Shown: in pieces, positions 5,328-30,370 of the stretch
Layout: the number at the start of each line of letters is the position of its first letter
How positions within the stretch are numbered: the first letter of the stretch is position 1
NCBI GenBank assembly: GCA_047651235.1
Contig: CP178758.1
Coordinates: forward strand, 300,001 to 332,000
Length of the DNA stretch: 32,000 nucleotides
Source: Candidatus Electrothrix yaqonensis
GTDB taxonomy: Bacteria > Desulfobacterota > Desulfobulbia > Desulfobulbales > Desulfobulbaceae
Direction: 5' to 3'
The notes under the pieces: model-generated
What the model saw: only the letters and a program-made list of their open reading frames with translations
Told to the model about the DNA's origin: nothing
Database searches by the model: none
Made by a program: the position numbers and the translations under genes

Positions 5328-5393
5328 AACAAATCTCCTCGTTTCACCCTGTAGTTTTCGAATTATGTGTTTGCATTTAATAAACTCTGGTTC

Positions 5394-5645: not shown

Positions 5646-6474
5646 TGTTATTCTTGTTGAATCTTATTTTGACAAGTTTCACCATGTTTCTGAATTTCGG
5701 AGAAAGACGAACAAGCAGTCTGACGAATATTTTTTGCCTGTTTTTATGATAGTCAAACATATTCCATTCATCTTCTACGATGATATCAGAATGTAATAAT
5801 TTCAAATCGTCTGTATCGGAAATACCCCAGGTGAAGCTGATATCTTTGTTTTTCGCTTTGTTCTTAACATTATAGTTCACCAGTTTGGTATGGAATACTT
5901 CACAAATCATTATAGATGAAGGAAAATTATTGTTTATTTCCCGCAGCAAATTTTTTATTTCATCTTCATGAAGATACATCAAGAGTCCTTCAGCAATAAA
6001 CAGATAATTATACGAAGCATCTTTTTCGATATCATCAATCCATGAATAATCAAGAACTGACTTTCCTATAGATGTATGTTTCTCCGTATCGCTATAGAAT
6101 TTCCTTCTGAATTCAATAGCCTCATGCAAATCAATATCGTACCAGAATTTAATTTTATCCGAATTCATTCGACTAAAACGGGTATCCAAACCTGCACCGA
6201 GATTTACTATCACAGGGTTTTCCGTCTTATTTATAAATTCAACAATCTGACTGTCCAATATTTTTGTCCTGACCGAGACTAAAAATTGTCCACTCGTATT
6301 CTTGTTGAAATAAGAAAAGTCATGATCAAGCAAGTCTATCATTTCAACCGCTTTTGTATCGGTGATGATTGCGTCTGAACGCAAGGTCTCGGAGGCTTTA
6401 AAATAAAGCGGAGCAAACATGGATTCAAATATCGGATTTTTATCAATCAAATCTTGAGGATTAATTTTATTCAT
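5638..6474 (-). CDS. class I SAM-dependent methyltransferase, leucine carboxyl methyltransferase (LCM/TcmP-like, COG3315) family
   Basis: 278-aa ORF. The hallmark block VIVNLGAGLDTRFSR is followed by FIAEGLLMYL. The gene is very AT-rich. Confidence 0.8.
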   Translation of the reverse strand: MNKINPQDLIDKNPIFESMFAPLYFKASETLRSDAIITDTKAVEMIDLLDHDFSYFNKNTSGQFLVSVRTKILDSQIVEFINKTENPVIVNLGAGLDTRFSRMNSDKIKFWYDIDLHEAIEFRRKFYSDTEKHTSIGKSVLDYSWIDDIEKDASYNYLFIAEGLLMYLHEDEIKNLLREINNNFPSSIMICEVFHTKLVNYNVKNKAKNKDISFTWGISDTDDLKLLHSDIIVEDEWNMFDYHKNRQKIFVRLLVRLSPKFRNMVKLVKIRFNKNNNG

Positions 6475-6538
6475 AGGACGCTCTTTTTGAGGTGTATACG
6501 TGATACTGTGTCAGTCTGAAAAAGAATACGGAACCAGG

Positions 6539-18600: not shown

Positions 18601-21600
18601 ACAGTTCCGGACAGCAGTACAGAGATTGAGCGCACCGGAGAGTTTGGGCGCAATTTCCTCCAGCGCTTCATTCGCAGAGACGCTGCCCAGATCTCCGGGC
18701 CTATTCAGGGCACTGCCGTGAATGATCCCTGTAATCTCGCCCTGGCGGTTCCGCACCTGCCGGACAAGTCTGTTGACCGCATCAGCATCTGTGACGTCAC
18801 ACTGATAGTATTCCGCAGCAAGCCCTGCGTTTCTGAATCTGCTGAGCGTCCGGAGGATTTCGTTATGCTGTTCCTTGTGCTGCGGCAGGGGGGAACTGCC
18901 CACCAGAGCCATCTGCACCGTGGTGGTCCGGGCAAATTCCAGAGCACATTCCGCAGTGATTCCTTTTGCGCCTCCGGTAACCAGGACAACATCTCCGGGC
19001 GACCAGGTGATTGATCTTGCTGTATACTCGGCACGGTTTTTCAGAACAGGCCGGGGAACCCGACGGATCTCATCGGTGCTGTATCCGACTGCAGAGTAGG
19101 GTTCAGCTGTGGCCAGTTCGGCCATGATGTGTCTGCAAAGCTTTTCCGGGGGGAGCTGCGGAGAAAAGTCGAGAACTCGCACCTTGAGGTGGGGACGTTC
19201 AAGGTGCATGCTGGCTGCCAGGGCTTTTGCCGAACAGCGTTCAATCTCAGCCGTAACTGGCCCGCTGCCGAAAAAACCGTCGCCGAACTGAATAACTGCA
19301 AAGATATTGTCCTGCAGCCCGATGGTATGGAAGGGATGGGAAAAGATGGTGTGCAGCCGGATCACATGCCGGACAAGGCGTTTCCTGTCTGCTGTTTTAT
19401 GCGCTGCCTGCCGGGGCAGCAGAGCAATGATCGTGGTGAATCTGTGCAGAAAAGAAGAAGAGGAGGCGCGGACATCGGCAAAGAGCGCACACTCGGCCTT
19501 TGCCGAAGAACGGATAAAATATTGTTCGAGATGTCCGGCCAGTTCCTGTTCTTCAGGTTCAGAAAGGATAAGTACCTGTTCGTTCTTGCGGACAGTGTTT
19601 TTCCCGGATGCCGTTTCAGCTGGCAGAGGTTCCGGTGAATACCGGATAGTGAAGTCGCGGACCCATGCCGGATATTGTGCCTCCTCTTTCGTCTCCGTGC
19701 TGTCCTGAGTGGCTGCTTTGCCAAGAAGATCCGTCAGTTCCTGCAGGGTTGCATTGGCGTGTTCCGGAACATTCAGTTTTGCCGCTGCAATACCTGCTTT
19801 GCCTGCTGCTTCGGCAATCAGTTCGGATGCCTTGATGGAATCAAGATTCAGATCATCCAGCAGGCGCAGGTCCGGTGACAGGCTTTCCTGCGGGAAACCT
19901 GTCCGCCGTTCAATCAGAGTAAAGAGGAGTTCCGGGATGGAGAGCTGTTCTGCAAAATTATCCGATGCCGGTCCGAGCGATGCCGAAGGGAGCCGTCTGT
20001 TGCCAAGCTCTGGAGTTCCGTTCTGCTGCGGGAAGTTACCGGACATACTGTCCAGGTCTGCCCTGACGACTCTACCGAGAAAGCGGCCCCGCTGTGCCAG
20101 ATACGCTGCCAGCTTTTCCCGGGGGATACCGGCAGCTCCAGCCAGCAGAGACTCAGTCGGACTATTCTGTTCAGGCCTGGGCAGGATGTCGGCTGCCCGG
20201 GAAAAGCCGGTTTCCGGCCGGGAGGGAAAGGGATCTTCACAGGGATTGGTCAGAAAGACACGTTCTCCGGCCGGGGTAAACGGTCGGACAAGGCGATCTT
20301 CATACAGGGCCTGCTGACTGACAGTACCTCCGTGGACAAAATAGACAGCCAGAAAGAAAAGCAGATCTCTGGATAGGCCCGGTTCGGATTCAACAGGAAA
20401 ACAGCAGGACGGTTCATCGGTATTCCCCGCATTAGCTGTAGTACCCGCGTTACCCGTATTGCCCGGATAATCTGAACTGCGTATTGCATGCACAAGACCG
20501 GTCAGTATCTGCCCCGGACCGACTTCCACCAGCAGATCACACCGGCTCTGCATCTGCTGCACCAGGCGGATAAAATCAACCGGTTCCACAACCTGATCGG
20601 CAAAGTGCCGGATAAGATCGGTCTCCTCCGTAATTTTTCGCTCCTGTATCCCGGTAACCACCGCAGCAGTCAGTTGTTCCGGCAGTTCGGGAATAATTTT
20701 GCTTTCGGCAAGCTGCTGTGCGGCAGAGGCAACGAATTGTGAGTGAAAGGCATTGGCAACCGGCAGGATCCGGGCTGTGATGTTCTGCTTTTCAGCCAGT
20801 CGGCAGACTTGGTTTACGCAGTTGATGTCACCGGAAATCACGGTCTGGGACGGGCTGTTTCTGTTTGCCGTAACAGCATAGCCGTCGGTCCGGTCGATCA
20901 GGCTCCGGGCTGTTGCGGCCGAACAGGCAAGACTGGCCATTGTCCCGGCAGCATCGGGCTGCGGCGCCATTGCCTGCCCCCGGAAGGCGGCAAACTTGAG
21001 CAGATCCTCCCGTGTATAGGCTCCGGCTGCATGAAACGCAGTCAGTTCGCCCAGACTGTGTCCGGCTGCAGCCTCCGGTCGGATACCGAGCCGGGCAAGT
21101 TTCTCCAGCCAGAGCACAGAGGCCAGACAGATGGCCGGCTGCGCGATTTCCGTCTGTTTGAGCTGTTCCTGCCACAGGGTTATCCGGGCGGCATCCGGTG
21201 CTCTTTCCGTCGGTCGGAACATAAAGTCGGTCAGCTGTTCTCCTTCGGGCCAGTCCAGCGCCTGTTCAGCAGCACGGACGATATCCTGTGCCCAGTCATG
21301 CCGAAGAACAAGGCTGCGCGCCATGTTGAGCTGCTGTGATCCCTGGCCGGGAAACAGAAAACCGACCCTGCAGCGCTGTACGTTGTTGCCGATGCAGATG
21401 CCTGACCGGCTGTCAATATGCGCTGTTCCATTTTCCGGCGGAGCACTCCGGAGTATCTCTTCAAGCCGGGCCAGACTTTTAGCAAGTGAATCCGGCGAAC
21501 CTGCCGTCACAGCGGCCCGGACACTCCCGATCCCGGTCCCGCTACCGGTTCCGTCCTGTCCGTACCGCTCTCCAACATGGGCAGCAAAGTCGGCGAGTTC

Positions 21601-23178
21601 GCCCTCACAGATTCCCTGGGCAAGATCCCGGATCGTCTGTATTCTGTCCGGCAGCTCGGAAATTGTCGGGGCGCTGACCAAAAAAAGTTCGGTATCCTGA
21701 TGTCCGGCCAGCAGCTTCTGCTCCGGCAGGGCAGGCAGCAGTTTCGGTGAGGGAGCATCACCTGATTCAATCGTAAGATGGCAGTTGATGCCGCCGAACC
21801 CCATCCCTGATATACCGGCACGCAGGGTTTTCCGGCTGTCCCGGATTTCTCCGTTCAGGATAGGATACAGATCTGTGGCTTTATCGGCAAAGACTGGATG
21901 CGGCTCAGTACAGTTGGCCGTAGGCGGCAGCACCCGTCGGTTGACCGCGATAACCGCTTTGATCAGGGCGCCGATGCCGGATGCCGCTTTGGTATGGCCG
22001 ATGATGGACTTCAGCGAGGTGATACCGCAGCGGCGGAGCTGTCCTGTCCGGTCGGATTGCTCGGATTTGCTGTTCAACCCGTCGTTCATTGCCCGGACAA
22101 TGGCCTCCAATTCCGTCTTATCACCCACCGTCGTGCCGGTTCCATGTCCTTCAATGAAATCCAGATCGTGGATATTCCAGCCTGCCTTTTTGTATGCGCG
22201 CAGCAGCGCTCTGGCCTGGCCCGGCGCATTCGGGGCAGTCAGGCCGCCTTTGCCGTCAGAAGAGATGCCCCAGCCTTTCAGGACGGCATAAACAGGGATC
22301 CCGGCGGCAACTGCGTCCTCCAGCCGCTGCATGACCACAAAACCGCATCCTTCTCCGGGCATGAAACCGTCTGCCCGACGGTCATAGACCCGCATATCCG
22401 TGCTGGTCAGGGCAGCGGTTTTGGCAAAACCGACCAGTTCAAGGGTATCCAGGCTGACATCCACCCCGCCTGCCAGAGCCAGATCCAGTTCTCCGTTGCT
22501 GAGATGTGCTGCCGCTGTTGCTGCGGCAAGGAGCGAAGACGCACAGGCGCCGTCCACTGTATAGCCGCCGCCGTGCAGGTCGAGATAATTGCAGATGCGC
22601 CCGGCGATGGTGTTGGACAGGGCCCCGGCCAGAGTATCTTCGGTGACAGGTGCAAAAATCGACTTGTAATATGCTTCGGCTGTATCGATCAGGTCGGCTG
22701 CACAGGAAAATGAGAAACCTTTTTCCTGTGCAGCAGCCTGCAGGACACGACGGACAAAGGGCCAGCGGAGACGCAGACCCTGGGCACGGGAATATTCGCC
22801 GGTCAGGCTGTTGCCAAGAATCACACCGGAGCGTTCTTTCGGGACAGCATTTTTTTTGAATCCCGCATCTTCCAGAGATGCAAGGGCGACCTGCAGAGCC
22901 AGCCAGTGCACGATATCCGTGGACTCGAAGGCTGAACGGGGGACACGGTACCTGACCGGGTCAAAAGAAAAACCGTCCAGCAGAGCGGCCCTGCAGCAGT
23001 AGGTCTTATCCGGTGCACCCGGGTCCGGATCGTAATAATCCGCCGCAGACAGGCGGGAAGCCGGGATAGGGCGGAACTGCCGTCTTTGTGTCAGAATATT
23101 TTCCCAGAACGAGCGCAGGTTTTTTGCTCCGGGATAATGACAGGCCATGCCGATGATGGCGATCGGCGTTGAATTCAT
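15637..23178 (-). CDS. iterative type I polyketide synthase, KS-AT-ACP-KR-DH-PPTase (enediyne PKSE-like order) with fused C-terminal tandem hot-dog thioesterase domains
   Basis: The start is taken at MNSTPIAIIGMACHYPG (ATG 23178); the track start at 23322 overlaps the upstream gene.
- KS: TVDGACASS (Cys codon 22545-22543), EGHGTGT, GHTKAASG.
- AT: FPGQGSQ, GHSLGE (Ser codon 21057-21055).
- ACP: LNLDSIKA (Ser codon 19839-19837).
- KR: VLVTGGAKGIT (18981-18955) and the catalytic-Tyr region GWYAFSNEA.
- DH: exact HxxxGxxxxP match, HCRRGTYLFP (His codon 18141-18139).
- PPTase: GKPHL..IDLSLTHNQG..GCDLE (17028-17014)..RVWAASETFFKA.
- Two 4HBT-like hot-dog units, at about 16629-16258 and about 16080-15703; the latter includes EDSNLVGNIYFSHYYSWQ. 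Confidence 0.93.
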   Translation of the reverse strand: MNSTPIAIIGMACHYPGAKNLRSFWENILTQRRQFRPIPASRLSAADYYDPDPGAPDKTYCCRAALLDGFSFDPVRYRVPRSAFESTDIVHWLALQVALASLEDAGFKKNAVPKERSGVILGNSLTGEYSRAQGLRLRWPFVRRVLQAAAQEKGFSFSCAADLIDTAEAYYKSIFAPVTEDTLAGALSNTIAGRICNYLDLHGGGYTVDGACASSLLAAATAAAHLSNGELDLALAGGVDVSLDTLELVGFAKTAALTSTDMRVYDRRADGFMPGEGCGFVVMQRLEDAVAAGIPVYAVLKGWGISSDGKGGLTAPNAPGQARALLRAYKKAGWNIHDLDFIEGHGTGTTVGDKTELEAIVRAMNDGLNSKSEQSDRTGQLRRCGITSLKSIIGHTKAASGIGALIKAVIAVNRRVLPPTANCTEPHPVFADKATDLYPILNGEIRDSRKTLRAGISGMGFGGINCHLTIESGDAPSPKLLPALPEQKLLAGHQDTELFLVSAPTISELPDRIQTIRDLAQGICEGELADFAAHVGERYGQDGTGSGTGIGSVRAAVTAGSPDSLAKSLARLEEILRSAPPENGTAHIDSRSGICIGNNVQRCRVGFLFPGQGSQQLNMARSLVLRHDWAQDIVRAAEQALDWPEGEQLTDFMFRPTERAPDAARITLWQEQLKQTEIAQPAICLASVLWLEKLARLGIRPEAAAGHSLGELTAFHAAGAYTREDLLKFAAFRGQAMAPQPDAAGTMASLACSAATARSLIDRTDGYAVTANRNSPSQTVISGDINCVNQVCRLAEKQNITARILPVANAFHSQFVASAAQQLAESKIIPELPEQLTAAVVTGIQERKITEETDLIRHFADQVVEPVDFIRLVQQMQSRCDLLVEVGPGQILTGLVHAIRSSDYPGNTGNAGTTANAGNTDEPSCCFPVESEPGLSRDLLFFLAVYFVHGGTVSQQALYEDRLVRPFTPAGERVFLTNPCEDPFPSRPETGFSRAADILPRPEQNSPTESLLAGAAGIPREKLAAYLAQRGRFLGRVVRADLDSMSGNFPQQNGTPELGNRRLPSASLGPASDNFAEQLSIPELLFTLIERRTGFPQESLSPDLRLLDDLNLDSIKASELIAEAAGKAGIAAAKLNVPEHANATLQELTDLLGKAATQDSTETKEEAQYPAWVRDFTIRYSPEPLPAETASGKNTVRKNEQVLILSEPEEQELAGHLEQYFIRSSAKAECALFADVRASSSSFLHRFTTIIALLPRQAAHKTADRKRLVRHVIRLHTIFSHPFHTIGLQDNIFAVIQFGDGFFGSGPVTAEIERCSAKALAASMHLERPHLKVRVLDFSPQLPPEKLCRHIMAELATAEPYSAVGYSTDEIRRVPRPVLKNRAEYTARSITWSPGDVVLVTGGAKGITAECALEFARTTTVQMALVGSSPLPQHKEQHNEILRTLSRFRNAGLAAEYYQCDVTDADAVNRLVRQVRNRQGEITGIIHGSALNRPGDLGSVSANEALEEIAPKLSGALNLCTAVRNCPIKLFVAFSSITGISGMMQNGWYAFSNEALHLLVRRYRETSPKTAVLSIAFSIWDEVGMGVRMGSTARLAQMGVQAISVRQGTARFLRLISHNPGSGQVVVTARTSDLDTFAFPPAPIPDNLQFLEKITAYYPGIEILSRAHLSLERDTYIRHHCRRGTYLFPAVFGLEAMAQAVRAVTGCSDFSSVSIEDIQLSHPITLNEAGKTEIEIHAQVLEQEEQGADPTVQVQIRTAQTDFRTDHFSATFILLKNRPPVRLKFTEPGPPLDINPETDLYTKELLFQGPPFQRIRQIFQLTSERCLFTAAPYPESENEENWPWNIGDPFFRDALLQSGQVSIPRDLCLPRKIERIERYPGTVKKDELLWGKVVLERRTAKEIYGKLNVFNRQGYLVERITGYLAHILEYKKDNPAAEDLAHPGRRDRQILLKELTRREPHLPAHCILPEINSDFIPGFERLNRQERREQELLLLRKTVETLPDFPDTPTEFAWSEDGKPHLSSPSDSGIDLSLTHNQGTVICTVGHDPQGCDLETVAARSQEEWTALLGATGSPLLARLTAQGDSLRRAGTRVWAASETFFKARARRPDPESMHIAKRIDDTVLFRCSDENSGCSCHILTFPVRLTLQGERMLAVTGQRDFHDAPLSQQIPIPENPAAWPENIGSFRHEFTTTFMEGRGPGGRVYFTNIPVWMGELRELALKPVAGLLVRDMKSGRWGMVTNHSSFTADQYPDSYDTMIGKVRLLDDTDLTASFISLGFSWEKKQQDGQLSRIASGRLTTTWVEIQEHGTVRQAPLPEYLQEYLEYLETLSLAQNADEMREKEELPLRSVKKSITAAGPATRKYLLHRQQFPTSREDSNLVGNIYFSHYYSWQARVRDHYLFARMPEQMIHRDAEGEFVCLHAEVTHLQEAMPFETVEVSMYLHELFQEGFTLYFEYYSISEGGERRKLAHGRHTAAWALLWPHRTGRIRPVKMPKSFLQHFMAIMDSSPSV

Positions 23179-23203
23179 TTCTGTTGCCTTGATCAGAAAT
23201 AAT

Positions 23204-24433
23204 TCAGAAGAAATACTGCAGCTCAAAGATAAGATGCGGGTCATCCGCAAAGGCGGAGGCAGGATCTGTCCCGTCGGCATCCAGAACAGACATTGCCTCA
23301 ATATGCAGCAGCATCTGTTCACCTATCCGGCGTTTTCCTTCAACGGAAAAGATATATGTCGATAGCTCAACATCTTTCATAATACCAGTCAGTATTTCGG
23401 TCCCGGCCGTATCGTTCAGGGCCAAGCGGAGGCCACCCATCATGTCATTATTAAAAGGGGAAAGAATATTGTCTGCACGGTCATCAAAAATGTATTCGCC
23501 GATAAGGCCGAGATCCATTGCGCTGTCATTGATACCGAAAAAGGTGTATTCAACTCCGCAGACAGCAGCGGCAAACGGACGGCCCTGACCGGAACGGTAC
23601 AGGGCTTCACCTTTCAGCAGCCACCTGCCTACCGCCATCTGCAGATCCAGCCCGGTCTGGCTGATCTGCGGGTAAAAGGGCAGCAGGACAGGATAATCAG
23701 GCGTATCAGACGTTCCGCCCGGCAGCAGATCAGGTTCACGGGACGTGCCGACAAAATGATACAGACCGACATCAGCATCGCCAAAAGTAGTGCTGTAGCG
23801 GAGCGCAAAATCAACATGGTGCTGTTCAGCCGCGCTTTCATATATGGCCTGCTCAGTATCAACGACCACCGGCGTACGCAGCCGGTCTTTTTCTCCGCCA
23901 AAGGTACGCTCCCGAAACCAGGGCAGGACAAAGGCGTCCACAGTGCCCCGATCCATGAACAGGGAAAAACGCAGCATGGGCTGACCTAGTTTTTCTTCGC
24001 CGTCAAACCCTTCCACCCCGTCTGTCTGATTGATAATATCCACAAGGTGAACAAATTCTGCAGCCCCCCAGAATACCTTGCTGAGACCGATCTGCACATC
24101 CAGGTTGTCACCGGCATAGAGAAAATTCGCCTCCCGGATATCCGAGTGACTCCGTTGATCCGTACTGCTGTCCAGACGGGCAAATGGTTTGAGGACAAGC
24201 TGTGACCCGCTGCTGAACCTGTGATAGAATTCCGGCTCGATCGCCACCGAAGCATTATGCTGCTCCTGGGAAGCGTAAGCGGGTTCTTCCGGGAAACAAC
24301 GTCCTTCCAGGGCGATGTTCCCGCTCAGCTCGGCAGCGGATATTGACAGGGGAATGTACAGGAAGAGTGCTCCCGGGAGCAGATGCCGGAACCGGGTGAA
24401 AACAGTCTGTCTCATTCTTATAGAGCAGTTCAT
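23204..24433 (-). CDS. putative outer-membrane beta-barrel protein (unknown family)
   Basis: 409-aa ORF. It has an N-terminal signal-like segment (LLPGALFLYIPLSISAAE), alternating beta-strand-like composition and a C-terminal ..ELQYFF. Its ATG overlaps the upstream stop (TAATG at 24435-24431). Confidence 0.6.
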   Translation of the reverse strand: MNCSIRMRQTVFTRFRHLLPGALFLYIPLSISAAELSGNIALEGRCFPEEPAYASQEQHNASVAIEPEFYHRFSSGSQLVLKPFARLDSSTDQRSHSDIREANFLYAGDNLDVQIGLSKVFWGAAEFVHLVDIINQTDGVEGFDGEEKLGQPMLRFSLFMDRGTVDAFVLPWFRERTFGGEKDRLRTPVVVDTEQAIYESAAEQHHVDFALRYSTTFGDADVGLYHFVGTSREPDLLPGGTSDTPDYPVLLPFYPQISQTGLDLQMAVGRWLLKGEALYRSGQGRPFAAAVCGVEYTFFGINDSAMDLGLIGEYIFDDRADNILSPFNNDMMGGLRLALNDTAGTEILTGIMKDVELSTYIFSVEGKRRIGEQMLLHIEAMSVLDADGTDPASAFADDPHLIFELQYFF

Positions 24434-25254
24434 TACCTTGCCCGCCGCAGGCTGTTCCGATGGAAATCCTTTTCCTGCAGACCAGTCTGAAACCGGTAAT
24501 TGTTGTAGAGCAGGACGGTTGATTTCCCGTTCTGATGATTCACCATGTGCAGTTTTCCGGCCCGCCAGTATTTGCCGAGATACTGCTCATAGTCAGTAAG
24601 GGTGAGGGTTTTCAGATGACTGTTTCTGCGGTCATAAAATTCCGCCTTCCTGATGCGGTATTCGTCCTTGTCCAGCCAGACGGTCTGGCGGCTGTAGCCG
24701 GAATTTTTCCGGTCAATAGGATAGTAGTCCACCACAGTGCAGTCATGGCCATCCAGAGTTTCATCACGCAGATATTTATAGGTGTATTTTTCAGTTTCCT
24801 GACCGGAAATGTCCTCATAGGAGAATTCACTTCCCATAAACGAGCCGGATTTGTTGCGTGAGCTGATACGCTTTACCCGTTTCAGAGCAGGAAGATACAG
24901 CCACTGGTCGTCATCTCCTGTTTTGTGCGAAAAGGAGAGAAGGGCGGTTCCCTTGACATCAGGGGGGGTATGAAAGATCAGCAGGGTCTTATCACCATCT
25001 CCCTTTACCTCCAAAACTTTGTATGTCAACTCCCGTCGGCTTTTCTGGCCGCTTCTATTGCGCAGAATCATCACCAGTTCAGCGGTCAGGTCACCAAACC
25101 CCTGATCACGGCGTTCAGCTTCCACGGCAATGGCACGGCCCTTTTCCTCAGGGCTTTCGGCCCGGCCCGGAGTGCAGCAGGATAATACATAAAAAATGCA
25201 GACAAAAATAACTGGTATGACGGTTGCTCGGAATGCGGGAAACTTCATAGTCAT
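24433..25254 (-). CDS. LolA-like 'outer membrane lipoprotein-sorting' family periplasmic protein
   Basis: 273-aa ORF with a signal peptide. The characteristic block is DQWLYLPALKRVKRISSRNKSGSFMGSEFSYEDI. GGAGG lies 5 nt upstream of the ATG. Confidence 0.8.
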   Translation of the reverse strand: MTMKFPAFRATVIPVIFVCIFYVLSCCTPGRAESPEEKGRAIAVEAERRDQGFGDLTAELVMILRNRSGQKSRRELTYKVLEVKGDGDKTLLIFHTPPDVKGTALLSFSHKTGDDDQWLYLPALKRVKRISSRNKSGSFMGSEFSYEDISGQETEKYTYKYLRDETLDGHDCTVVDYYPIDRKNSGYSRQTVWLDKDEYRIRKAEFYDRRNSHLKTLTLTDYEQYLGKYWRAGKLHMVNHQNGKSTVLLYNNYRFQTGLQEKDFHRNSLRRAR

Positions 25255-25289
25255 AGTTTCCTCCTTTTGTCAGGATATGTCAATATGCT

Positions 25290-27644
25290 TCAGTCTTGGA
25301 TGTTCTTTGATTTTTTCCGCTGGCAGCAGAACAGAAACTCTGCGTCAGTTGCGGAGCGGTCGAATTGGATCAGCAGGACAGGGAGAAAGAAGAGATCGAA
25401 CAGCAGAGCAAAGCTGATGGTGATCACGGTCATGCCTCCCAGATGGGCGTTGATCTGAAAACCGGAAGCGCTCAATACCAGGAAACCGCCGATCAGAGTC
25501 ACTGTGGAGATCCACATAGGAAAACCGACTGTTCTGAAGGCAGAGCGGACAGCGTCCTCCGAAGACATTTTTTTTCTGAGCCGTCCGTGCTGGTATTTGG
25601 CCAGAAAATGGACAGTGTCATCTACCACAATGCCCAGCGTCACGGCAAGCATCACCGAGACCGCAAGCCCGACCCGGCCGACAAAATATCCCCACACACC
25701 GAATCCTATAAAGGCGGGAGCAAGATTGGGCAGCAGACTGAGTATTCCCAAGCTGCAGTTGCGCAGAACTGCCGTCATAATAAGCGAAATCAGGATCAGG
25801 GCAAGCAGGGAGGCAAAGAGCATGGCTTTGACATTCCGCTCCGAGAGGTGAGCAAACATCATAGTCATACCGGAACCGTGGGTATACATGGAGGGAGGGG
25901 CGTGCTCCTTCAGCCAGTTCCTGGCAGCGAGTTCTAGTTTCCGCAGATCCCTGCTGCCGGCTTCGGTAAGGGAGACGGTCATCCTGGTCGCGGATTTGTT
26001 CACATTGATCCGGTCATTCAGATCCAGTCCGAAGGGGAGATTCATTTCGTAAAGCAGCAGATACTGGGCTGCCAGCCTGCGGTCTGCCGGGAGCCTGTAA
26101 TACGCCGGGTCGTTGTTGTGCATGTCACGGTTGATCCGCTGCATAATATCGGTAAATGTATAGACGTGACAGACATGCTTCTGACGGCGGAACCACTCGG
26201 CAAACGCTTCAAGAGTACGTTGGTAGTCCGGGTCGTTTATTCCGCCTTCCCGGCCGGAATCAAGGTCCCAGTCAATCATGTACATACCGGTCAGGTTGTT
26301 GTTCGTAAAATCCGTGGCCCGGCGAAAGTCGAAGCGGGGGCTGAAATATTTGATAAAATCCTCGTCCAGCTGAAGCCGTGGTATCCCGGCAGCTGCAAGG
26401 AGAATCACCAGCAGAGTACCGGGCAAGATCGCCGTACGTCTGGCTATGACAAATTCAGCAAGTTGTTCAAAAAGAAGCACTGAACGGGCGTCTGAATGCT
26501 TCGGGGCTTTGACAGGCAGAACAGCTGCTAGGGCCGGCAGGAAGAAAATCGAGTAGAACAGTGCGGCAATAACTCCCATGGCCACGATATTGCCGAGATC
26601 ATGAAAGGGCGGAGCATCGGAGAAATTCATGCTGAGGAAGCCGACAGCCGTGGTCAGGCTGGTCACCAGAACAGGCTGCAGGTTGATCCGTATGGCCTGT
26701 TGAATCGCCTGCTGACGGTCATCTCCGAGCCGCATCCGATGAAACATGGTTCCCAGGATGTGAACCGAGTCCGCAACCGCAAGGGTAAGGATAATTGTCG
26801 GTGCATTTGCCGAAGCAGGGTTTATGGAAATGCCCAACCAGCCGGCCAGCCCCATGCCGGTCAGAGCGGAAAGAAAAATAACAAAAAAGGTTGCAGACAT
26901 GCCGAGAACAGAACGCAGGCAGAGGGCCAGAATCAGAAGCAGAACGCAGCACATGACAGGCACCAGCAGCTCTATGTCCTCCTCGGCCGCCTTTCTGAAT
27001 GTGTGGTCGAACATCACAATGCCGGTGGCATAGATACCCAGCTGCGGATATTTTTGTATCATTTTATCCCGCAGAACATACGCGGCAGCAGCGATTTCTT
27101 CCGATTCTCCACCTGTTTTTTCTGGTTTCACAACATTGACATTAACACCGGTCACATGCCCTGAGCGGGAAATCAGCCGTCCTTTCAGCAGCGGTTCGTT
27201 CAGGACAACGGTCCGTACCTTGTCCAGCTGTGCTGCACTCAGCCGCTCAGCCTCTTCATCAACCAGATTTTCGACAGTCAGCTCGTCTCCTTCCACCCTG
27301 GTATATTGAAAATTGGTGATGGAATCCACTCTGCTGGAATAGGGGAGCTGCCATGCCTGCCCGGTTAAATCCTGCACAGCACTGAGGACATCCCGTGTAA
27401 AGACATTTCCGGATTTCGGGGCAACTGTAAAGAAAACATTTTCCGATTTGGTGTAGGTCTGTTCCAGATGAGTGAACGCCAGGAGCTGCGGATTGTCCTC
27501 TGAAAAAAATATCCTGCTGTTGCTGGAAAAGGTGAGCGAACGGATACCGATCCCGCTTGCGCCTGCAACCAGCAGAGCGAACAGAATCACCAGCCATCTG
27601 TATCTGACCGTAAACCGTCCGATCCAGCCCCCGACTTTTTCCAT
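25290..27644 (-). CDS. RND-superfamily exporter, MMPL/HpnN-like (COG1033-type)
   Basis: 784-aa ORF. It has two repeated halves, each with a large loop followed by a bundle of TM helices. The N-terminus (RFTVRYRWLVILFALLVAGASGIGIRSL) and the ..FFSEDNPQL.. block are typical of this exporter class. Confidence 0.85.
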   Translation of the reverse strand: MEKVGGWIGRFTVRYRWLVILFALLVAGASGIGIRSLTFSSNSRIFFSEDNPQLLAFTHLEQTYTKSENVFFTVAPKSGNVFTRDVLSAVQDLTGQAWQLPYSSRVDSITNFQYTRVEGDELTVENLVDEEAERLSAAQLDKVRTVVLNEPLLKGRLISRSGHVTGVNVNVVKPEKTGGESEEIAAAAYVLRDKMIQKYPQLGIYATGIVMFDHTFRKAAEEDIELLVPVMCCVLLLILALCLRSVLGMSATFFVIFLSALTGMGLAGWLGISINPASANAPTIILTLAVADSVHILGTMFHRMRLGDDRQQAIQQAIRINLQPVLVTSLTTAVGFLSMNFSDAPPFHDLGNIVAMGVIAALFYSIFFLPALAAVLPVKAPKHSDARSVLLFEQLAEFVIARRTAILPGTLLVILLAAAGIPRLQLDEDFIKYFSPRFDFRRATDFTNNNLTGMYMIDWDLDSGREGGINDPDYQRTLEAFAEWFRRQKHVCHVYTFTDIMQRINRDMHNNDPAYYRLPADRRLAAQYLLLYEMNLPFGLDLNDRINVNKSATRMTVSLTEAGSRDLRKLELAARNWLKEHAPPSMYTHGSGMTMMFAHLSERNVKAMLFASLLALILISLIMTAVLRNCSLGILSLLPNLAPAFIGFGVWGYFVGRVGLAVSVMLAVTLGIVVDDTVHFLAKYQHGRLRKKMSSEDAVRSAFRTVGFPMWISTVTLIGGFLVLSASGFQINAHLGGMTVITISFALLFDLFFLPVLLIQFDRSATDAEFLFCCQRKKSKNIQD

Positions 27645-27923: not shown

Positions 27924-28066
27924 GGAACGGATTTTCTGTAACTATCTGTTTTTGCTGAGACCGGATAATCCAACTCCTAATTCGCATAAGTAATAAATTT
28001 TCTGGAAGGTTACATAGGTATTTATGATATTCACTTTTTTAGATGCATTATTTACAATAAAACGTG

Positions 28067-28095
28067 TGGAACCAAACCATGTTTAAGTGTATAAT
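28067..28095 (+). promoter_or_regulatory. candidate sigma-70 promoter with extended -10 for the NACHT gene
   Basis: TGGAAC (28067-28072) is followed by a 17-nt spacer ending in TG and then TATAAT (28090-28095). This lies about 90 nt upstream of the GTG start at 28185. Confidence 0.4.
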
Positions 28096-28184
28096 CCGAT
28101 ACATAACCTGCTCCGGACAGCGGCTGGCATCGTGTCTTTTCGGAGTCTTAATCTGTAACCGGGGAAAAACACAAGGAGAACATT

Positions 28185-30275
28185 GTGGGACTTGGGCTGA
28201 AGCGTCTATCCTTTGTCAGCGTCGGATCGGTCAGGCAGCTGCGGAAGCAGCTGAAAAACCTTTCCGGCGATCAGGCCCAGGCACTGAATCTGTTACGGGA
28301 TGATTTCGCTGATCCATCTGATCTGGCGAGATACTATGTGGAACCCCATCTTCAGGAGAGCTGTCCTGTCCCGCAGCATGGAGGACATTATTTTCCTGCT
28401 CCCCGGCAGGCGGCTTTTTCTTTGCTTAATACCTTTCTTGCCGCCAGTATGTCTTTGAGCAAAGACGGCAGCCGCGAGCTGATTCTGCTCGGAGAATCGG
28501 GATCAGGAAAAACTTCGCTTCTGCTCATGATCGAGCTGATGTATCTTGCCGGGTTCTGGCCTAAGGGGTATCATTGTCTGCTGTTCAGGCTTGACGAGCA
28601 TACTCTGGAACACATGGAGGCAATTGAAAATAAAGCGGAGACCGTTCTGCTGCTCGACGGACTGAATGAGGACCGGCTGGCCAGGAACCGCCCTCTTGAG
28701 CGGCTGCTGACAATACTACATGCCGGAGAGGATTTCAGGCGGGTAATTCTTACCTGCCGCAGTCATTTTTTTCCGCCGCTGGAAGCGGACAGCTCAGGGC
28801 GCCTCAGGATAGGGGGACTGTCCGGCTATAATTACCCCATCCTCTATCTGGCACCGTTTAATGCCAGCCAGATTCAGGAGGTAACGCATAACCGTCTCTC
28901 CCGGAATACGAATTACTTTCAGAGTTTTGGGGTGTGGCGACAGAGGACACGGGCCGCTCAGCTACTTGCCGGAGCAGAGAAACTGAGGATGCGACCGGTT
29001 CTCCTGCAGCATGTCGAGATTCTACTGGATTTTGATGTGCAGAAAGGACGCGACGTTTATGCTGTGTATGAATATCTGATCCGACATTGGCTTAACCGGC
29101 AGATCCGCAGGTTGGAGGAGGTCGAATGCGAATCCGTCCCGGTACAGGATGAATTGTTCAGCGCCTTTGTCCGGCTTGCCTGCTGGATGGAGGAGCAGGA
29201 CAGAACAGAGGTAGCGGAAAAAAAACTTCGGGAGCTATTCTGCAAGGATGCCGACAGCTGCTGGCTGGAAGAATTTCAGCCCGACAACAGCAGTCTGCTG
29301 CACAGAACTTCGAAACAGGCCTTCCGGTTCACCCATTCTACTTACAGGGAATTCCTGCTTGCCTATGCCCTGATTCATGACAGAACATCGTCCGGGACAC
29401 AGCCGTCTGTCCCGGTGCGTGCCACGGAACAGATCGTGCGTTTTCTTGATCTTGCTGGCGGGGCGGCAAACTATGTTGACCGGCTGGATCTTGCTGTGTT
29501 CAACCCGTTCCGTTATGTGGATTCATACAGAACCTTGTTTTTTTGGCAGGATCGGCTGACCCGGATGGGGAAGCGCTATCTGAAAGGGCCGGAAATGGTT
29601 ATGCTGCCCGGCGGACGTTTCAGGATGGGTGACAGCCAGGGGAGCGGCTCGGACGATGTCCGCCCGGTGCATGAGGTGGAGCTGGACACGTTTGCCATTG
29701 GTCGGTATCCAGTTACTTTTGAGGAATATGATTTTTACTGCATGGCTACAGGCCGGGCAAAACCGCCAGACAACGGCTGGGGCAGGAAGCGGCGGCCGGT
29801 GTTCAATGTCAGCTGGCAGGACGCCAATGATTACTGCGACTGGCTGCGGAGAATGACCGGACGGCCGTACCGGCTGCCCACTGAGGCGGAATGGGAATAT
29901 GCCTGTCGGGCGGGCAGGGATTCGGCGTATTGTTTCGGAGACGATGCGGAACAGCTCCCGGAGTATGCCTGGTATGCTGAAAACGCCGACAATCAGACCC
30001 ATCCGGTGGGGATGAAAAGGGCTAACGTCTGGGGGCTGCATGATATGTACGGCAATGTCTGGGAGTGGTGTTCGGACAGGTATGATAAGGACTATTATAC
30101 CGAGCTTCCGGTAAGGAACCCGTCAGGCACTGACCAGGGAGCAGGCCGAGTTCTACGGGGAGGTTCCTGGGACAGCAGTGAGCGGTTCATCCGCTCGTGC
30201 TTTCGCTTCTGCCTTTCACCCGGACTGCGTATTATCCGGGTGGGATTCCGGGTGGCACAGGGAGAGGATGAGTAG
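28185..30275 (+). CDS. NACHT-type STAND NTPase with C-terminal FGE-sulfatase (SUMF1-like) domain
   Basis: 696-aa ORF with a GTG start and AAGGAG 8 nt upstream.
- Walker A: LLGESGSGKTSLL (about 28491-28517).
- Walker B, NACHT-style: VLLLDGLNED (28644-28673).
- Further NACHT blocks: VILTCRSHFF, YLAPFNASQIQEV, and the winged-helix-like FTHSTYREFLLAYAL.
- C-terminal domain, aa ~468-693 (29586-30263): PGGRFRMG, NVSWQDANDYCDWL, YRLPTEAEWEYACRAG, HDMYGNVWEWCSD, RVLRGGSW, VGFRVA. Confidence 0.9.
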   Translation: MGLGLKRLSFVSVGSVRQLRKQLKNLSGDQAQALNLLRDDFADPSDLARYYVEPHLQESCPVPQHGGHYFPAPRQAAFSLLNTFLAASMSLSKDGSRELILLGESGSGKTSLLLMIELMYLAGFWPKGYHCLLFRLDEHTLEHMEAIENKAETVLLLDGLNEDRLARNRPLERLLTILHAGEDFRRVILTCRSHFFPPLEADSSGRLRIGGLSGYNYPILYLAPFNASQIQEVTHNRLSRNTNYFQSFGVWRQRTRAAQLLAGAEKLRMRPVLLQHVEILLDFDVQKGRDVYAVYEYLIRHWLNRQIRRLEEVECESVPVQDELFSAFVRLACWMEEQDRTEVAEKKLRELFCKDADSCWLEEFQPDNSSLLHRTSKQAFRFTHSTYREFLLAYALIHDRTSSGTQPSVPVRATEQIVRFLDLAGGAANYVDRLDLAVFNPFRYVDSYRTLFFWQDRLTRMGKRYLKGPEMVMLPGGRFRMGDSQGSGSDDVRPVHEVELDTFAIGRYPVTFEEYDFYCMATGRAKPPDNGWGRKRRPVFNVSWQDANDYCDWLRRMTGRPYRLPTEAEWEYACRAGRDSAYCFGDDAEQLPEYAWYAENADNQTHPVGMKRANVWGLHDMYGNVWEWCSDRYDKDYYTELPVRNPSGTDQGAGRVLRGGSWDSSERFIRSCFRFCLSPGLRIIRVGFRVAQGEDE

Positions 30276-30370
30276 GAAAATTCAGGATATTCGGAATGTT
30301 CATCAATCAGTTTACTGCACTACCCGGTAGAGACTGAGCAGACAGAATTATACATCAGCGAGCAACCCGG

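What the first reader, a model, noticed from the sequence alone, without database searches (positions are those of the whole stretch)
28185..30275. Effector-less NACHT NTPase fused to an FGE-sulfatase-type domain, inserted as a solitary gene
The NACHT module is complete: Walker A GESGSGKTS, Walker B LLLDGLNED, a TCRSHFF block and a winged-helix FTHSTYREFLLAY.

Only about 45 residues precede the NTPase core (aa 1-~45). That leaves no room for a nuclease, protease or TIR-type effector of the kind seen in characterised bacterial NLR-like (Avs/bNACHT) antiphage proteins.

The C-terminal sensor position is filled by a SUMF1/FGE-fold domain rather than TPR/WD40/LRR repeats. That domain lacks the C-x4-C catalytic pair of true formylglycine-generating enzymes. 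It reads RGGSWDSSERFIRSCFRFCLSPG, the common non-catalytic RSxxR version. It therefore looks more like a ligand-binding module than an enzyme.

The gene sits alone between an export operon and aat, behind a long AT-rich control region. It is a candidate conflict or immunity sensor whose output is unknown. The short N-terminus could be an adaptor for an effector encoded elsewhere.
Basis: partly seen in the sequence, partly recalled or inferred. Interest (0 to 1): 0.65.

Follow-up and report, generated by a model that had tools for sequence, protein, structure and literature searches.

The report
Fixed-specificity NLR-like sensor, cable bacteria
This gene from a cable bacterium encodes an NLR-like switch protein (a NACHT NTPase joined to a non-enzymatic lectin-fold binding domain), an already described kind of bacterial receptor; its ligand-binding tip is frozen, whereas sister copies in related genomes are hypervariable.

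Summary
The ORF (28185-30275, +, 696 aa) is real. It cannot be extended upstream, because an in-frame TAA lies 11 codons before the GTG. It encodes a cytoplasmic NACHT-clade STAND NTPase with an intact Walker A, sensor-1 Arg and winged-helix His; its best structural matches are NOD2, NLRC4 and NLRP3. This is fused to a non-catalytic FGE-sulfatase/C-type-lectin ('FGS') domain closest to PvdO and to the DGR variable protein TvpA. There is no effector domain.

The architecture is not new. NACHT-FGS 'antigen-receptor-type' bacterial NLRs have been described (Kaur 2021, Kibby 2022, Dore 2024), mainly in multicellular bacteria, and the window comes from a cable bacterium. The short N-terminus belongs to a module shared by more than 1,600 protein clusters that mostly begin the same way, so 'effector-less' is the family norm.

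Orthologues occur across Electrothrix and Electronema in lineage-stable, non-defence contexts; E. scaldis carries three paralogues. Paralogue clade B has a hypervariable, NNC-coded, DGR-like C-terminal tail. The window's clade A has the same surface frozen under purifying selection, plus a degenerate Walker B acidic pair.

Best reading: a fixed-specificity NLR-like sensor derived from a diversifying receptor family, with unknown output. New member of a known kind; moderate interest.

The parts
28185..30275 (+). Complete gene for a 696-aa NACHT-FGS protein (clade A of the cable-bacterium family), stop codon included
   Evidence: ORF listing and RBS. In-frame stop 11 codons upstream. Full-length orthologues of 693-697 aa.
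28062..28095 (+). Conserved promoter-like element (AAC-G-TGTGGAA ... GTG-TATAAT), about 90 nt upstream of the start codon
   Evidence: Aligned and conserved upstream of the window gene and four Electrothrix-type orthologues despite different upstream neighbours. Function is inferred, not tested. The generic scan picked a different, non-conserved site at 28030-28058.
28148..28178 (+). 5' leader block TTAATCTGTAAC (28148-28159), conserved in several orthologues, followed by the RBS AAGGAG (28173-28178)
28185..28334 (+). N-terminal helical segment (aa 1-50; helices 14-24, 29-40, 44-50); no known domain
   Evidence: AF2 model with deep alignment, pLDDT 92-96. No Pfam/NCBIfam/PADLOC hit at E<=1. 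Conserved family-wide, e.g. L19, F41, L47.
28332..28469 (+). Conserved pre-P-loop segment (aa 50-95), including YYVEPHLQ..P (Y51, P54, Q57, P61 invariant or near-invariant across the wide family)
   Evidence: Alignments A1, A2, A3 and A5.
28470..29384 (+). NACHT-clade NTPase module: nucleotide-binding domain, helical domain and winged helix (aa 96-400)
   Evidence: Sub-threshold Pfam nSTAND3/NACHT hits. Collinear profile match to Pfam-NACHT proteins. Foldseek top hits are NOD2, NLRC4 and NLRP3 at E 1e-10 to 1e-6.
28491..28514 (+). Walker A / P-loop GESGSGKT (aa 103-110; G106, G108, K109 invariant)
28647..28673 (+). Walker B LLLDGLNED (aa 155-163). D158 is invariant. The NACHT 'DE' acidic pair reads N161-E162 here, and N161 occurs in all 16 clade A proteins examined.
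   Evidence: Clade B and the wider family read DALDED.
28752..28775 (+). Sensor-1 block TCRSHFFP (aa 190-197; R192 invariant in A1 and nearly invariant in the wider family)
29322..29366 (+). Winged-helix signature FRFTHSTYREFLLAY (aa 380-394; F382 and H384 invariant in 138 relatives)
29586..30257 (+). FGE-sulfatase / C-type-lectin-fold ('FGS') domain, non-catalytic (aa 468-691)
   Evidence: Pfam E=2.3e-57. PDB hits TvpA 1.1e-30, FGE 3.9e-28, PvdO 5.7e-27, with the catalytic Cys pair absent. Foldseek hits PvdO, ToxD, TvpA and FGE.
30147..30260 (+). VR-equivalent C-terminal tail (aa 655-692, RVLRGGSWDSSERFIRSCFRFCLSPGLRIIRVGFRVAQ). This is the surface that DGRs diversify in related proteins; here it is frozen.
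   Evidence: It is the most conserved segment in clade A (83% pairwise identity against 60% overall). Tail substitutions fall almost only at codon position 3. Tails are identical or differ at 1 of 24 residues between proteins 7-11% divergent elsewhere. No template repeat in the window.

Best explanation
The gene encodes a soluble cytoplasmic NLR-like receptor-switch. It has a NACHT-clade STAND NTPase with a family-specific N-terminal helical/pre-P-loop extension. Its sensor position holds a single non-catalytic C-type-lectin-fold FGS (FGE-sulfatase-like) domain. [quoted passage not shown]

Within cable bacteria it is the derived, invariant paralogue (clade A) of a receptor family whose other paralogues (clade B) carry a hypervariable, DGR-like binding tip.

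Proposed mechanism:
1. The FGS domain binds one constant ligand through the frozen C-terminal surface (aa ~655-692).
2. Binding releases autoinhibition of the NACHT module and allows nucleotide exchange.
3. The protein oligomerises.
4. Because there is no enzymatic effector in cis, the signal leaves through the clustered N-terminal helical segments or through hetero-oligomers with a paralogue, acting on a partner encoded elsewhere. Alternatively, the assembly simply sequesters the ligand.

Shown here: domain identities, motif integrity, absence of an effector and of FGE catalytic residues, family distribution, and the selection pattern on the binding tip. Inferred: ligand binding by the tail, oligomerisation, and the biological role. 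I favour conflict or cell-fate control in the multicellular filament, directed at a conserved rather than a rapidly evolving target.
For: - **Gene model.** ORF and start are fixed. There is no TM or signal segment: maximum 19-aa hydropathy is 1.04.
- **NACHT clade.** Invariant G106/G108/K109, D158, R192 and H384. Collinear profile hits to Pfam-NACHT proteins. The top 37 Foldseek hits are all animal NACHT NLRs.
- **FGS domain.** Pfam 2.3e-57. The closest solved relatives include the DGR variable protein TvpA. The catalytic Cys pair is absent.
- **Published class.**
- **Effector-less is the family norm.** 1,619 clusters share the N-terminal + NTPase module, and 138 of the best 149 begin with it. 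C-termini are swappable binding modules: pentapeptide repeats in 45 of 64, FGE in 14 of 64, plus a few WD40. Rare N-terminal TIR or DUF4062 fusions tie the family to conflict systems.
- **Vertical inheritance.** Orthologues are 47-64% identical across Electrothrix and Electronema, in lineage-stable housekeeping contexts. Divergence is proportional to that of the neighbouring Aat protein, which is 74-78% identical. The promoter-like element is conserved.
- **Frozen binding tip in clade A.** 83% against 60% identity; synonymous to nonsynonymous codon differences 230:109; position-3-only changes; 0-1 of 24 tail differences against 7-11% elsewhere.
- **Hypervariable tip in clade B.** 46% against 75% identity. 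54-79% NNC codons against 18-31% in the rest of the gene. 46 nonsynonymous to 6 synonymous differences. 7 of 23 tail differences against 1 of 678 elsewhere between two genomes. Substitutions fall mostly at codon positions 1-2.
- **Clade A is derived.** It scores 272-350 bits against the non-cable family profile, whereas clade B scores 425-454.
Against: - There is no experimental evidence for any step.
- No effector was identified in cis or in any conserved neighbouring gene.
- PADLOC and NCBIfam defence models do not recognise the protein, and it is not in a defence island.
- The Walker B acidic pair is degenerate throughout clade A (N161; position 162 is E, D, H or Q). The NTPase cycle may therefore be altered or hydrolysis-deficient.
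- The FGS domain is only moderately to poorly modelled, so the geometry of the binding surface is inferred from homology to TvpA-type CLec domains.
- The DGR machinery (RT, TR) that would explain clade B variability was not found in any sequence available here.
- Strong conservation and a housekeeping context fit a non-immune role equally well.
Confidence: 0.55

Rival explanations
1. It is the invariant partner ('helper' or co-receptor) of the hypervariable clade B paralogue. Clade B would sense diverse ligands through its diversified tip. It would then hetero-oligomerise through the shared NACHT/N-terminal module with clade A, which provides a constant function. This resembles sensor/helper NLR pairs in plants or NAIP-NLRC4 in animals.
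For: - In three Electrothrix genomes the two clades lie in tandem, clade B upstream and clade A about 0.6-0.9 kb downstream on the same strand.
- DGR-linked STAND-CLec targets commonly occur as duplicated pairs.
- Clade A has a degenerate Walker B acidic pair while clade B keeps the family consensus. This fits division of labour.
- Both clades predate the Electrothrix/Electronema split.
Against: - In the window, in Electronema (L007, L093) and at L092 the clade A gene has no clade B neighbour in the sequence seen.
- In E. aestuarii the tandem clade B copy is truncated while clade A stays intact. Clade A therefore persists without that partner.
- Neither paralogue has an effector, so the pair still lacks an output.
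- No interaction data exist.
Confidence: 0.15
2. It is a non-immune, lineage-specific signalling switch of cable bacteria. It would sense an endogenous molecule, for example a glycan, a cell-envelope or periplasmic-fibre precursor, or a damage signal, and control a housekeeping or developmental process in the filament.
For: - It is conserved across cable-bacterium genera in stable positions among housekeeping genes.
- The binding tip is under strong purifying selection.
- The promoter-like element is conserved.
- There is no defence-island context and no PADLOC hit.
- STAND NTPases also include transcriptional and other regulators (general knowledge of the family, e.g. MalT).
Against: - There is no DNA-binding or other output domain.
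- The closest relatives form a family with swappable repeat or lectin sensors and occasional TIR or DUF4062 N-termini. That is a pattern typical of conflict systems.
- The sister paralogues are hypervariable, which is hard to reconcile with endogenous signalling.
Confidence: 0.2
3. It is an NTPase-regulated enzyme. Under this reading the C-terminal domain is an active SUMF1/EgtB/PvdO-type oxidase, as the database names imply ('formylglycine-generating enzyme family protein', 'nonheme iron enzyme').
For: - Source annotations use these names.
- NCBIfam partial matches to PvdO, EgtB and SenA cover the FGE-fold part.
- The window also holds a sulfatase-family protein at 3235-4596.
Against: - All NCBIfam scores are far below their cutoffs (114 against 500; 90 against 360).
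- Both FGE catalytic cysteines are absent.
- The EgtB, SenA and OvoA matches cover only the FGE-fold part of those enzymes. From general knowledge of those families, their iron site lies in a separate DinB-like domain; no such domain was detected here.
- The best solved sequence relative of the window's own domain is the binding protein TvpA.
- The protein is cytoplasmic and fused to a STAND switch, an architecture described for receptors.
Confidence: 0.04
4. It is a decaying relic of a former DGR target that no longer has a function.
For: - Clade A is the faster-diverged branch relative to the family profile.
- It has lost family motifs (NPAD, and the D of the Walker B pair).
- There is weak residual NNC enrichment in some clade A tails.
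Against: - Full-length intact ORFs are found in every orthologue examined.
- Purifying selection is strongest exactly on the binding tip.
- Walker A, D158, R192 and H384 are invariant.
- The promoter-like element is conserved.
Confidence: 0.03

Closest known systems
Bacterial NACHT proteins of the 'antigen-receptor type' with a C-terminal FGS domain, also called STAND NTPase-FGS conflict systems (Kaur et al. 2021 eLife, PMC8195603; Kibby et al. 2022 bioRxiv, 10.1101/2022.07.19.500537)
   Same: A central NACHT-clade STAND NTPase is followed by a single FGE-sulfatase/C-type-lectin domain. The host is a multicellular bacterium. Related genomes carry more than one paralogue.
   Different: The published description has an effector or effector-associated domain (EAD) at the N-terminus and frequent DGR linkage. 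This gene has neither. Its binding tip is invariant, and it is vertically conserved in housekeeping contexts.
DGR-diversified STAND-CLec putative antigen sensors of multicellular bacteria (Dore et al. 2024 PNAS, PMC10907252)
   Same: Same architecture (NACHT or nSTAND + C-terminal CLec/FGE). They are often duplicated targets, and many have N-terminal extensions without known domains. The clade B paralogues in cable bacteria show the same VR-type hypervariability.
   Different: No RT or template repeat was found near any copy. The window gene's VR-equivalent segment is under purifying selection rather than hypermutation.
bNACHT01-like clade (clade 14 of Kibby et al.), an experimentally antiphage NACHT protein with no recognisable effector domain
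   Same: A NACHT protein encoded as a single gene, with only a short helical N-terminus and no enzymatic effector.
   Different: Per Kibby et al., bNACHT01 has an NNH1 N-terminal helical domain and a short C-terminal extension instead of an FGS domain, and it was found next to CBASS in a defence context. The window protein shows no Pfam match to any N-terminal family at E<=1.
TvpA (Treponema denticola variable protein 1, PDB 2y3c), a DGR variable protein with an FGE-type C-type-lectin fold
   Same: It is the best solved sequence relative of the window's C-terminal domain (E=1.1e-30). It shares the RGGSW...RxxxR...P..R....GFR scaffold that frames the variable region.
   Different: TvpA has no NTPase; it is generally described as a lipoprotein diversified by a DGR (not checked here). 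The window protein is cytoplasmic, fused to NACHT, and not diversified.
Formylglycine-generating enzyme (SUMF1/FGE), and PvdO, EgtB
   Same: The FGE-sulfatase fold (Pfam PF03781, E=2.3e-57). PvdO is the best profile hit in the PDB (3.6e-43).
   Different: The Cu-binding catalytic Cys pair is absent. There is no DinB-like domain. All NCBIfam enzyme models score far below their cutoffs.
Avs/AVAST antiviral STAND proteins (e.g. Avs5, whose NTPase carries the Pfam nSTAND3 annotation; 10.1101/2025.07.08.663546)
   Same: A STAND NTPase with a C-terminal sensor. The best Pfam NTPase match is nSTAND3, though sub-threshold.
   Different: Avs proteins are tripartite, with N-terminal nuclease, Sir2 or protease effectors and mostly TPR-like sensors, and they lie in defence islands. 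None of these features is present here, and there is no PADLOC hit.

Membership tests
NACHT clade of STAND NTPases | Walker A GxxxxGK[ST] | tested here: met
   GESGSGKT at aa 103-110. G106, G108 and K109 are invariant in 22 orthologues and 138 relatives.
NACHT clade of STAND NTPases | Walker B hhhhD followed by a small residue (D-[GAS]) | tested here: met
   LLLD158-G159. D158 is invariant.
NACHT clade of STAND NTPases | Acidic pair (D-E) two residues after the Walker B Asp | tested here: inconclusive
   The window has N161-E162-D163. All 16 clade A proteins have N at 161, and position 162 varies (E, D, H, Q). Clade B and the wider family have D-E-D.
NACHT clade of STAND NTPases | Sensor-1 Arg and a winged-helix domain with a conserved His | tested here: met
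   R192 (invariant in A1, nearly invariant in the wider family) and FxH384xxxxEFL are conserved.
NACHT clade of STAND NTPases | Pfam NACHT (PF05729) score above the gathering threshold | tested here: not met
   18.5 bits against 26.7; nSTAND3 24.9 against 27.2. Only 2 of 22 orthologues hit NACHT and 9 of 22 hit nSTAND3 at E<=0.01.
NACHT clade of STAND NTPases | Fold closest to solved NACHT NLR structures | tested here: met
   The model has pLDDT >90 over aa 10-440. The top 37 Foldseek hits are NOD2, NLRC4, NLRP3/7/9/14, NAIP and NLRP1, at E 1e-10 to 6e-6.
STAND NTPase-FGS / antigen-receptor-type bNACHT systems | A STAND NTPase followed by a single C-terminal FGS (FGE-sulfatase, C-type-lectin fold) domain | tested here: met
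STAND NTPase-FGS / antigen-receptor-type bNACHT systems | N-terminal effector or effector-associated (EAD, Death-like) domain | tested here: not met
   No Pfam, NCBIfam or PADLOC hit in aa 1-95 at E<=1. The ORF cannot extend upstream. The segment is part of the NTPase module family-wide.
STAND NTPase-FGS / antigen-receptor-type bNACHT systems | Host is a multicellular bacterium, with multiple paralogous copies per genome | tested here: inconclusive
   The relatives are cable bacteria. E. scaldis has at least 3 copies. The window genome outside the 32 kb could not be examined.
STAND NTPase-FGS / antigen-receptor-type bNACHT systems | Protection against phage or other invaders | not testable with these tools
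   This needs experiments. Context gives no support: no defence island and no PADLOC hit.
DGR target (variable) protein | C-type-lectin/FGE fold with a C-terminal variable region on the RGGSW...GFR scaffold | tested here: met
   The scaffold is present at aa 658-689.
DGR target (variable) protein | A cognate template repeat and a reverse transcriptase | tested here: not met
   No repeat of the tail and no YxDD ORF in the window. The {base or A} template search was negative in the window and in all cable-bacterium loci held. The rest of the genome was not available.
DGR target (variable) protein | Hypervariability confined to the VR | tested here: not met
   For clade A the VR-equivalent is the most conserved segment. 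For the clade B paralogues the feature is met (same calls).
Formylglycine-generating enzyme (SUMF1/FGE) | Catalytic, Cu-binding Cys pair (C-x4-C) after RGGS | tested here: not met
   In the alignment to S. coelicolor FGE, the first Cys aligns to Ser and the second lies in an insertion absent from the query. No Cys is conserved in that stretch across orthologues.
Avs/AVAST and other catalogued defence STANDs | Recognition by PADLOC or NCBIfam defence models, and defence-island context | tested here: not met
   PADLOC best E=0.02, P-loop only. NCBIfam EruA scores 23.6 bits against a cutoff of 1000. Neighbours are housekeeping genes.

The most novel reading that the evidence does not exclude
Cable bacteria maintain a two-tier NLR-like receptor set derived from one ancestral gene. 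The first tier is a hypermutating NACHT-CLec sensor (clade B, DGR-like NNC-coded tip). The second is a 'germline-fixed' descendant (clade A, this gene). Its tip has been frozen onto one conserved ligand and its Walker B acidic pair has degenerated. It has become a vertically inherited core gene of the multicellular filament.

It would act either as a helper or co-receptor for the variable sensor, or as a domesticated receptor for a self or danger signal that controls cell fate along the filament. That would be a bacterial counterpart of sensor/helper NLR pairs, or of the transition from a diversifying to a fixed innate receptor.
Probability: 0.2. Interest if true: 0.7.

Novelty: new member of a known kind. 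Interest (0 to 1): 0.4.

Why it matters
NACHT-FGS receptors are proposed bacterial analogues of NLRs and even of antigen receptors, but none has a known ligand or output. Here one lineage of multicellular bacteria offers a natural comparison. One paralogue has a hypervariable binding tip. Another has the same tip frozen for the whole radiation of cable bacteria, and neither carries an effector domain.

That makes three things concrete. It gives a defined 38-residue surface to use as bait for a conserved ligand. It gives a testable prediction about an altered NTPase cycle (N161). It also gives a test case for how effector-less NLR-like proteins signal. For cable-bacterium biology it flags a conserved, lineage-restricted gene family that may bear on infection control or cell fate in centimetre-long filaments.

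If it is simply one more NACHT-FGS protein of unknown function, the value is limited to correcting the misleading 'formylglycine-generating enzyme' and 'nonheme iron enzyme' annotations.

Tried and rejected
1. **Genome-contig scan with the family alignment.** Its only use was to show that L010 and L014 align from about aa 40 to 691.
2. **Search for a DGR template repeat or RT.** All attempts were negative:
   - low-stringency blastn of the tail against the window and against paralogue loci;
   - a YxDD ORF scan;
   - a {base or A} degenerate template search over all cable-bacterium loci;
   - nine more clade B loci from a metagenome scan.
   
   Whole genomes could not be searched.
3. **Test of 'insertion' through the aat neighbour in E. 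scaldis.** Both flanks differ completely, so the test was uninformative.
4. **Adaptor test with an N-terminal 92-aa profile.** Only 249 candidates were scored and 5 short fragments returned. Known full-length members were not recovered, so the test is too weak to count as negative evidence.
5. **PADLOC, NCBIfam and Rfam.** Nothing useful beyond the FGE fold and the P-loop.
6. **First AF2 model from 22 orthologues.** It was mediocre (pLDDT 66). The second model, from 138 relatives, is good for aa 10-440 but poor for the FGS domain. No single model is reliable end to end, so no inter-domain geometry is claimed.
7. **Enzyme reading (FGE, EgtB, PvdO).** Rejected on catalytic residues and scores.
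8. **Control comparisons.** Those for the tandem clade B copies and for pairs involving L092 were misaligned by indels and were ignored.

Full report
**1. What is in the sequence**

The ORF lies at 28185-30275 on the + strand (696 aa). It starts at a GTG, 6 nt downstream of AAGGAG (28173-28178). An in-frame TAA at 28149-28151 lies only 11 codons upstream, so no upstream start can add a domain. Orthologues are 693-697 aa and begin at the same place.

There is no hydrophobic segment: maximum 19-residue hydropathy is 1.04. The protein is therefore predicted to be soluble and cytoplasmic.

The gene's GC content (0.55) is close to the window average (0.51). The 540-bp upstream intergenic region has GC 0.39.

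**2. Domains**

*C-terminal domain.* Pfam finds FGE-sulfatase over aa 468-691 (E=2.3e-57). Against solved structures, the family profile hits PvdO (3.6e-43), the DGR variable protein TvpA (8.9e-40) and true FGEs. With the window's own domain as query, TvpA is the best hit (1.1e-30).

In the residue-level alignment to S. coelicolor FGE, the first catalytic Cys aligns to Ser. The second lies in a three-residue insertion that the query lacks. No Cys is conserved in that stretch among orthologues. NCBIfam enzyme models (PvdO, EgtB, SenA) score far below their cutoffs. The domain is a non-catalytic C-type-lectin-fold module, which the literature calls 'FGS'.

*NTPase.* It is only weakly recognised by Pfam: nSTAND3 24.9 bits and NACHT 18.5 bits, both under threshold. 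Three lines of evidence still place it in the NACHT clade:
- G106, G108, K109, D158, F382 and H384 are invariant in both alignments; R192 is invariant in A1 and nearly invariant across the 138 relatives.
- The family profile aligns collinearly with the NACHT region of Pfam-positive NACHT-FGE proteins.
- A model built on 138 relatives has pLDDT >90 over aa 10-440. Its 37 best PDB matches are all animal NACHT NLRs: NOD2, NLRC4, NLRP3/7/9/14, NAIP and NLRP1.

PADLOC finds nothing beyond the P-loop.

**3. The N-terminus**

About 95 residues precede the P-loop strand. They comprise three short helices (14-24, 29-40, 44-50) and a conserved YYVEPxLQ..P segment. All of it is modelled confidently as part of the NTPase module. 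No library matches this region at E<=1.

A search of 1.84 billion representative proteins with aa 1-465 found 1,619 clusters at E<=1e-3 and 260 at E<=1e-30. In the best 149, the match runs from query residue ~8-30 to ~400-430. In 138 of them it starts within the first ~60 residues of the subject. So the short N-terminus is not a lineage-specific adaptor, and 'effector-less' is the norm for a large family.

In a census of 64 relatives, the C-terminus is pentapeptide repeats in 45, FGE-sulfatase in 14 and WD40 propellers in a few. That is a swappable sensor position. The rare N-terminal extensions include:
- TIR (P0158) and DUF4062 (P0221);
- a second STAND ATPase (P0148);
- one protein that a source names CHAT-domain.

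These link the family to conflict-type systems. A profile search with the N-terminal 92 aa alone returned only gene fragments, but it scored just 249 candidates, so it is a weak test.

**4. Where it occurs**

All full-length relatives above 47% identity that carry a name are from Candidatus Electrothrix, Candidatus Electronema or 'Desulfobulbus sp. US4'. The neighbouring Aat protein is 74-78% identical to both genera. The window therefore comes from a cable-bacterium lineage roughly equidistant from the two. The receptor is 62% identical to E. scaldis and 57-58% to Electronema. It evolves faster than Aat, but in proportion.

Two old paralogue clades exist: clade A, which includes the window gene, and clade B. 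Their contexts are as follows.

| Copy | Genomes | Context |
|---|---|---|
| Clade A + tandem clade B | Electrothrix scaldis, sp. GW3-4, communis; L092 shows clade A only (contig ends ~650 nt upstream) | radical-SAM/methyltransferase - APH - (PIN toxin-antitoxin) - clade B - 0.6-0.9 kb gap - clade A - TrkA - rpmH-rnpA-yidD-yidC |
| Clade A | Two Electronema-type genomes | Downstream of Gly-zipper OMP/YjbQ genes |
| Third copy (clade B type) | Three genomes | Between ApbA and cytochrome c/Ppx |
| Clade B | Electronema | Follows gatB |
| Clade A | Window | Divergent from an MMPL/LolA-like/PKS operon, followed by aat |

None of these is a defence island, and no partner gene is shared across lineages. 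The aat neighbourhood of E. scaldis differs on both sides, so 'insertion' can be neither shown nor excluded.

A promoter-like block (window 28062-28095) and a leader block (28148-28159) are conserved upstream of the window gene and the Electrothrix-type orthologues, despite different neighbours. The gene thus carries its own control region. No Rfam family matches the window.

**5. The binding tip: frozen here, hypervariable in the sister clade**

In DGR targets of this fold, the variable region lies between RGGSW and GFR at the extreme C-terminus. The two clades behave in opposite ways there.

| Measure | Clade A (window gene) | Clade B |
|---|---|---|
| Pairwise identity, tail vs whole protein | 83% vs 60% (most conserved segment) | 46% vs 75% (least conserved) |
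| Codon differences in tail, synonymous : nonsynonymous | 230 : 109 | 6 : 46 (three syntenic tandem copies) |
| Codon positions substituted in tail [1,2,3] | [0,2,11], [1,0,10], [1,2,14] | [14,9,9], [11,14,5], [9,8,3], [12,13,8] |
| NNC codons, tail vs rest of gene | 33-75% vs 21-43%; enrichment weak or absent | 54-79% vs 18-31% |
| Tail vs rest, near-identical proteins | 0-1 of 24 differ vs 7-11% elsewhere | 7 of 23 plus an indel vs 1 of 678 (P0033/P0377) |

The clade B tails sit on a fixed CGT-TCC-GCC / CCN-GGC / GGC-TTC-CGC scaffold. Additional metagenomic clade B loci show the same pattern of a shared scaffold with changing 'spot' residues. This is the signature of targeted, DGR-like diversification.

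However, no reverse transcriptase or template repeat was found in the window, in any paralogue locus or in the metagenome contigs. No paper in the library links cable bacteria to DGRs. The mechanism therefore remains inferred.

Against a profile built only from non-cable relatives, clade B scores 425-454 bits and clade A 272-350 bits. Clade A is the derived branch. It also carries clade-wide changes:
- DALDED has become D[GA]LN[E/D/H/Q]D in the Walker B acidic pair.
- RTQFFP has become R[ST]HFFP.
- The family's NPAD motif is lost.

In E. aestuarii the tandem clade B copy is truncated after ~245 residues, while the adjacent clade A gene is intact.

**6. Interpretation**

The protein is a member of the published class of bacterial NACHT-FGS receptors. 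Kibby et al. list FGS as one of two 'antigen-receptor-type' C-termini of bacterial NACHT proteins. They also note that, apart from the bNACHT01-like clade, such proteins usually carry N-terminal effectors. Kaur et al. 2021 describe the STAND NTPase-FGS combination as widespread, often DGR-linked and often present in two or more copies, and they report FGS systems to be preponderant in multicellular bacteria. Dore et al. 2024 show such proteins as DGR targets in multicellular bacteria, often duplicated and often with uncharacterised N-termini. The 2026 STAND survey shows FGE-sulfatase sensors.

What is particular here is evolutionary rather than architectural. This is the invariant, vertically inherited, motif-altered paralogue of a diversifying receptor family, in a lineage of multicellular filamentous bacteria.

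I take the most likely mechanism to be a ligand-gated STAND switch. The frozen FGS tip binds one conserved ligand, and the NACHT module then exchanges nucleotide and oligomerises. Output goes through the N-terminal helices or through a paralogue to a factor encoded elsewhere, or the assembly sequesters the ligand. Only the anatomy and the selection pattern are shown; binding, assembly and role are inferred.

The main rivals are a helper/co-receptor role for clade B and a non-immune, lineage-specific signalling role. An enzymatic role and a relic status are disfavoured.

**7. Verdict**

Novelty: new member of a known kind. Interest is moderate (0.4). The more novel reading is a fixed 'germline' descendant, or helper, of a hypermutating bacterial NLR. 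It is not excluded, and I give it about 0.2 probability.

Noticed in passing
L001 4994-7099, L003 5024-7117, L005 5431-7428 (tandem copies); L089 8001-10097, L094 10001-12061, L095 9881-11986 (third copy); L090 8001-10076; metagenome loci L097, L098, L101: Clade B paralogues of the window gene in other cable bacteria have a hypervariable C-terminal tail with a DGR-like signature. The tail is rich in NNC codons, substitutions fall at codon positions 1-2, and two genomes differ at 7 of 23 tail residues but 1 of 678 elsewhere. No reverse transcriptase or template repeat was found nearby, and no paper links cable bacteria to DGRs.
   Followed up: partly
window 28062-28095 and 28148-28159: A promoter-like block (TGTGGAA ... 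TATAAT) and a leader block (TTAATCTGTAAC) are conserved upstream of the window gene and Electrothrix-type orthologues, even though the upstream neighbours differ. This may be a conserved regulatory site.
   Followed up: partly
proteins P0101-P0249: The N-terminal + NTPase module defines a large family (1,619 representative clusters) that Pfam NACHT/nSTAND3 models recognise poorly. Most members carry C-terminal pentapeptide repeats and no effector domain. Named members come from Verrucomicrobiales, Candidatus Contendobacter and Candidatus Venteria.
   Followed up: partly
P0374 (E. aestuarii), compared with P0372 (E. scaldis): The tandem clade B copy is truncated in E. aestuarii. The sequence diverges after ~245 residues and ends at 301 aa, while the adjacent clade A gene (P0394) is intact.
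   Followed up: partly
L089 1-5110, L094 1174-6739, L095 952-6546: The third-copy locus is syntenic in three genomes. It has a caspase-family (Peptidase_C14) gene flanked by two TGase_elicitor-domain genes, 3-9 kb upstream of the NACHT-FGS gene. A functional link is not established.
   Followed up: no
window 15637-27644 (- strand): A same-strand run of genes: a 2,561-aa polyketide-synthase-like protein (KS-AT-KR-DH plus a thioesterase-like end), a 409-aa protein without Pfam hits, a LolA-like protein and an MMPL/RND-type transporter. This suggests a lipid or polyketide synthesis-and-export unit.
   Followed up: no
window 1-6500: Low-GC stretches (35-39% at 1-1000 and 4000-6500) surround a DDE_Tnp_4 transposase (2272-2916, -). 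Nearby are a sulfatase-family protein (3235-4596, -) and methyltransferase-family genes. This looks like a possibly acquired or rearranged segment.
   Followed up: no
window 8064-9671 (- strand): A 535-aa protein made almost entirely of MORN repeats (18 matched stretches, E=3e-137), next to uvrC.
   Followed up: no
L096 18725-20699: In E. scaldis another, unrelated NACHT-domain protein (1,054 aa) lies 8 kb from aat, which suggests that cable bacteria carry several NACHT proteins.
   Followed up: no
window 30276-30370: Only 95 bp, with no predicted terminator, separate the gene from aat on the same strand, so read-through co-transcription is possible in this genome. The adjacency is not seen in the other genomes examined.
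   Followed up: no
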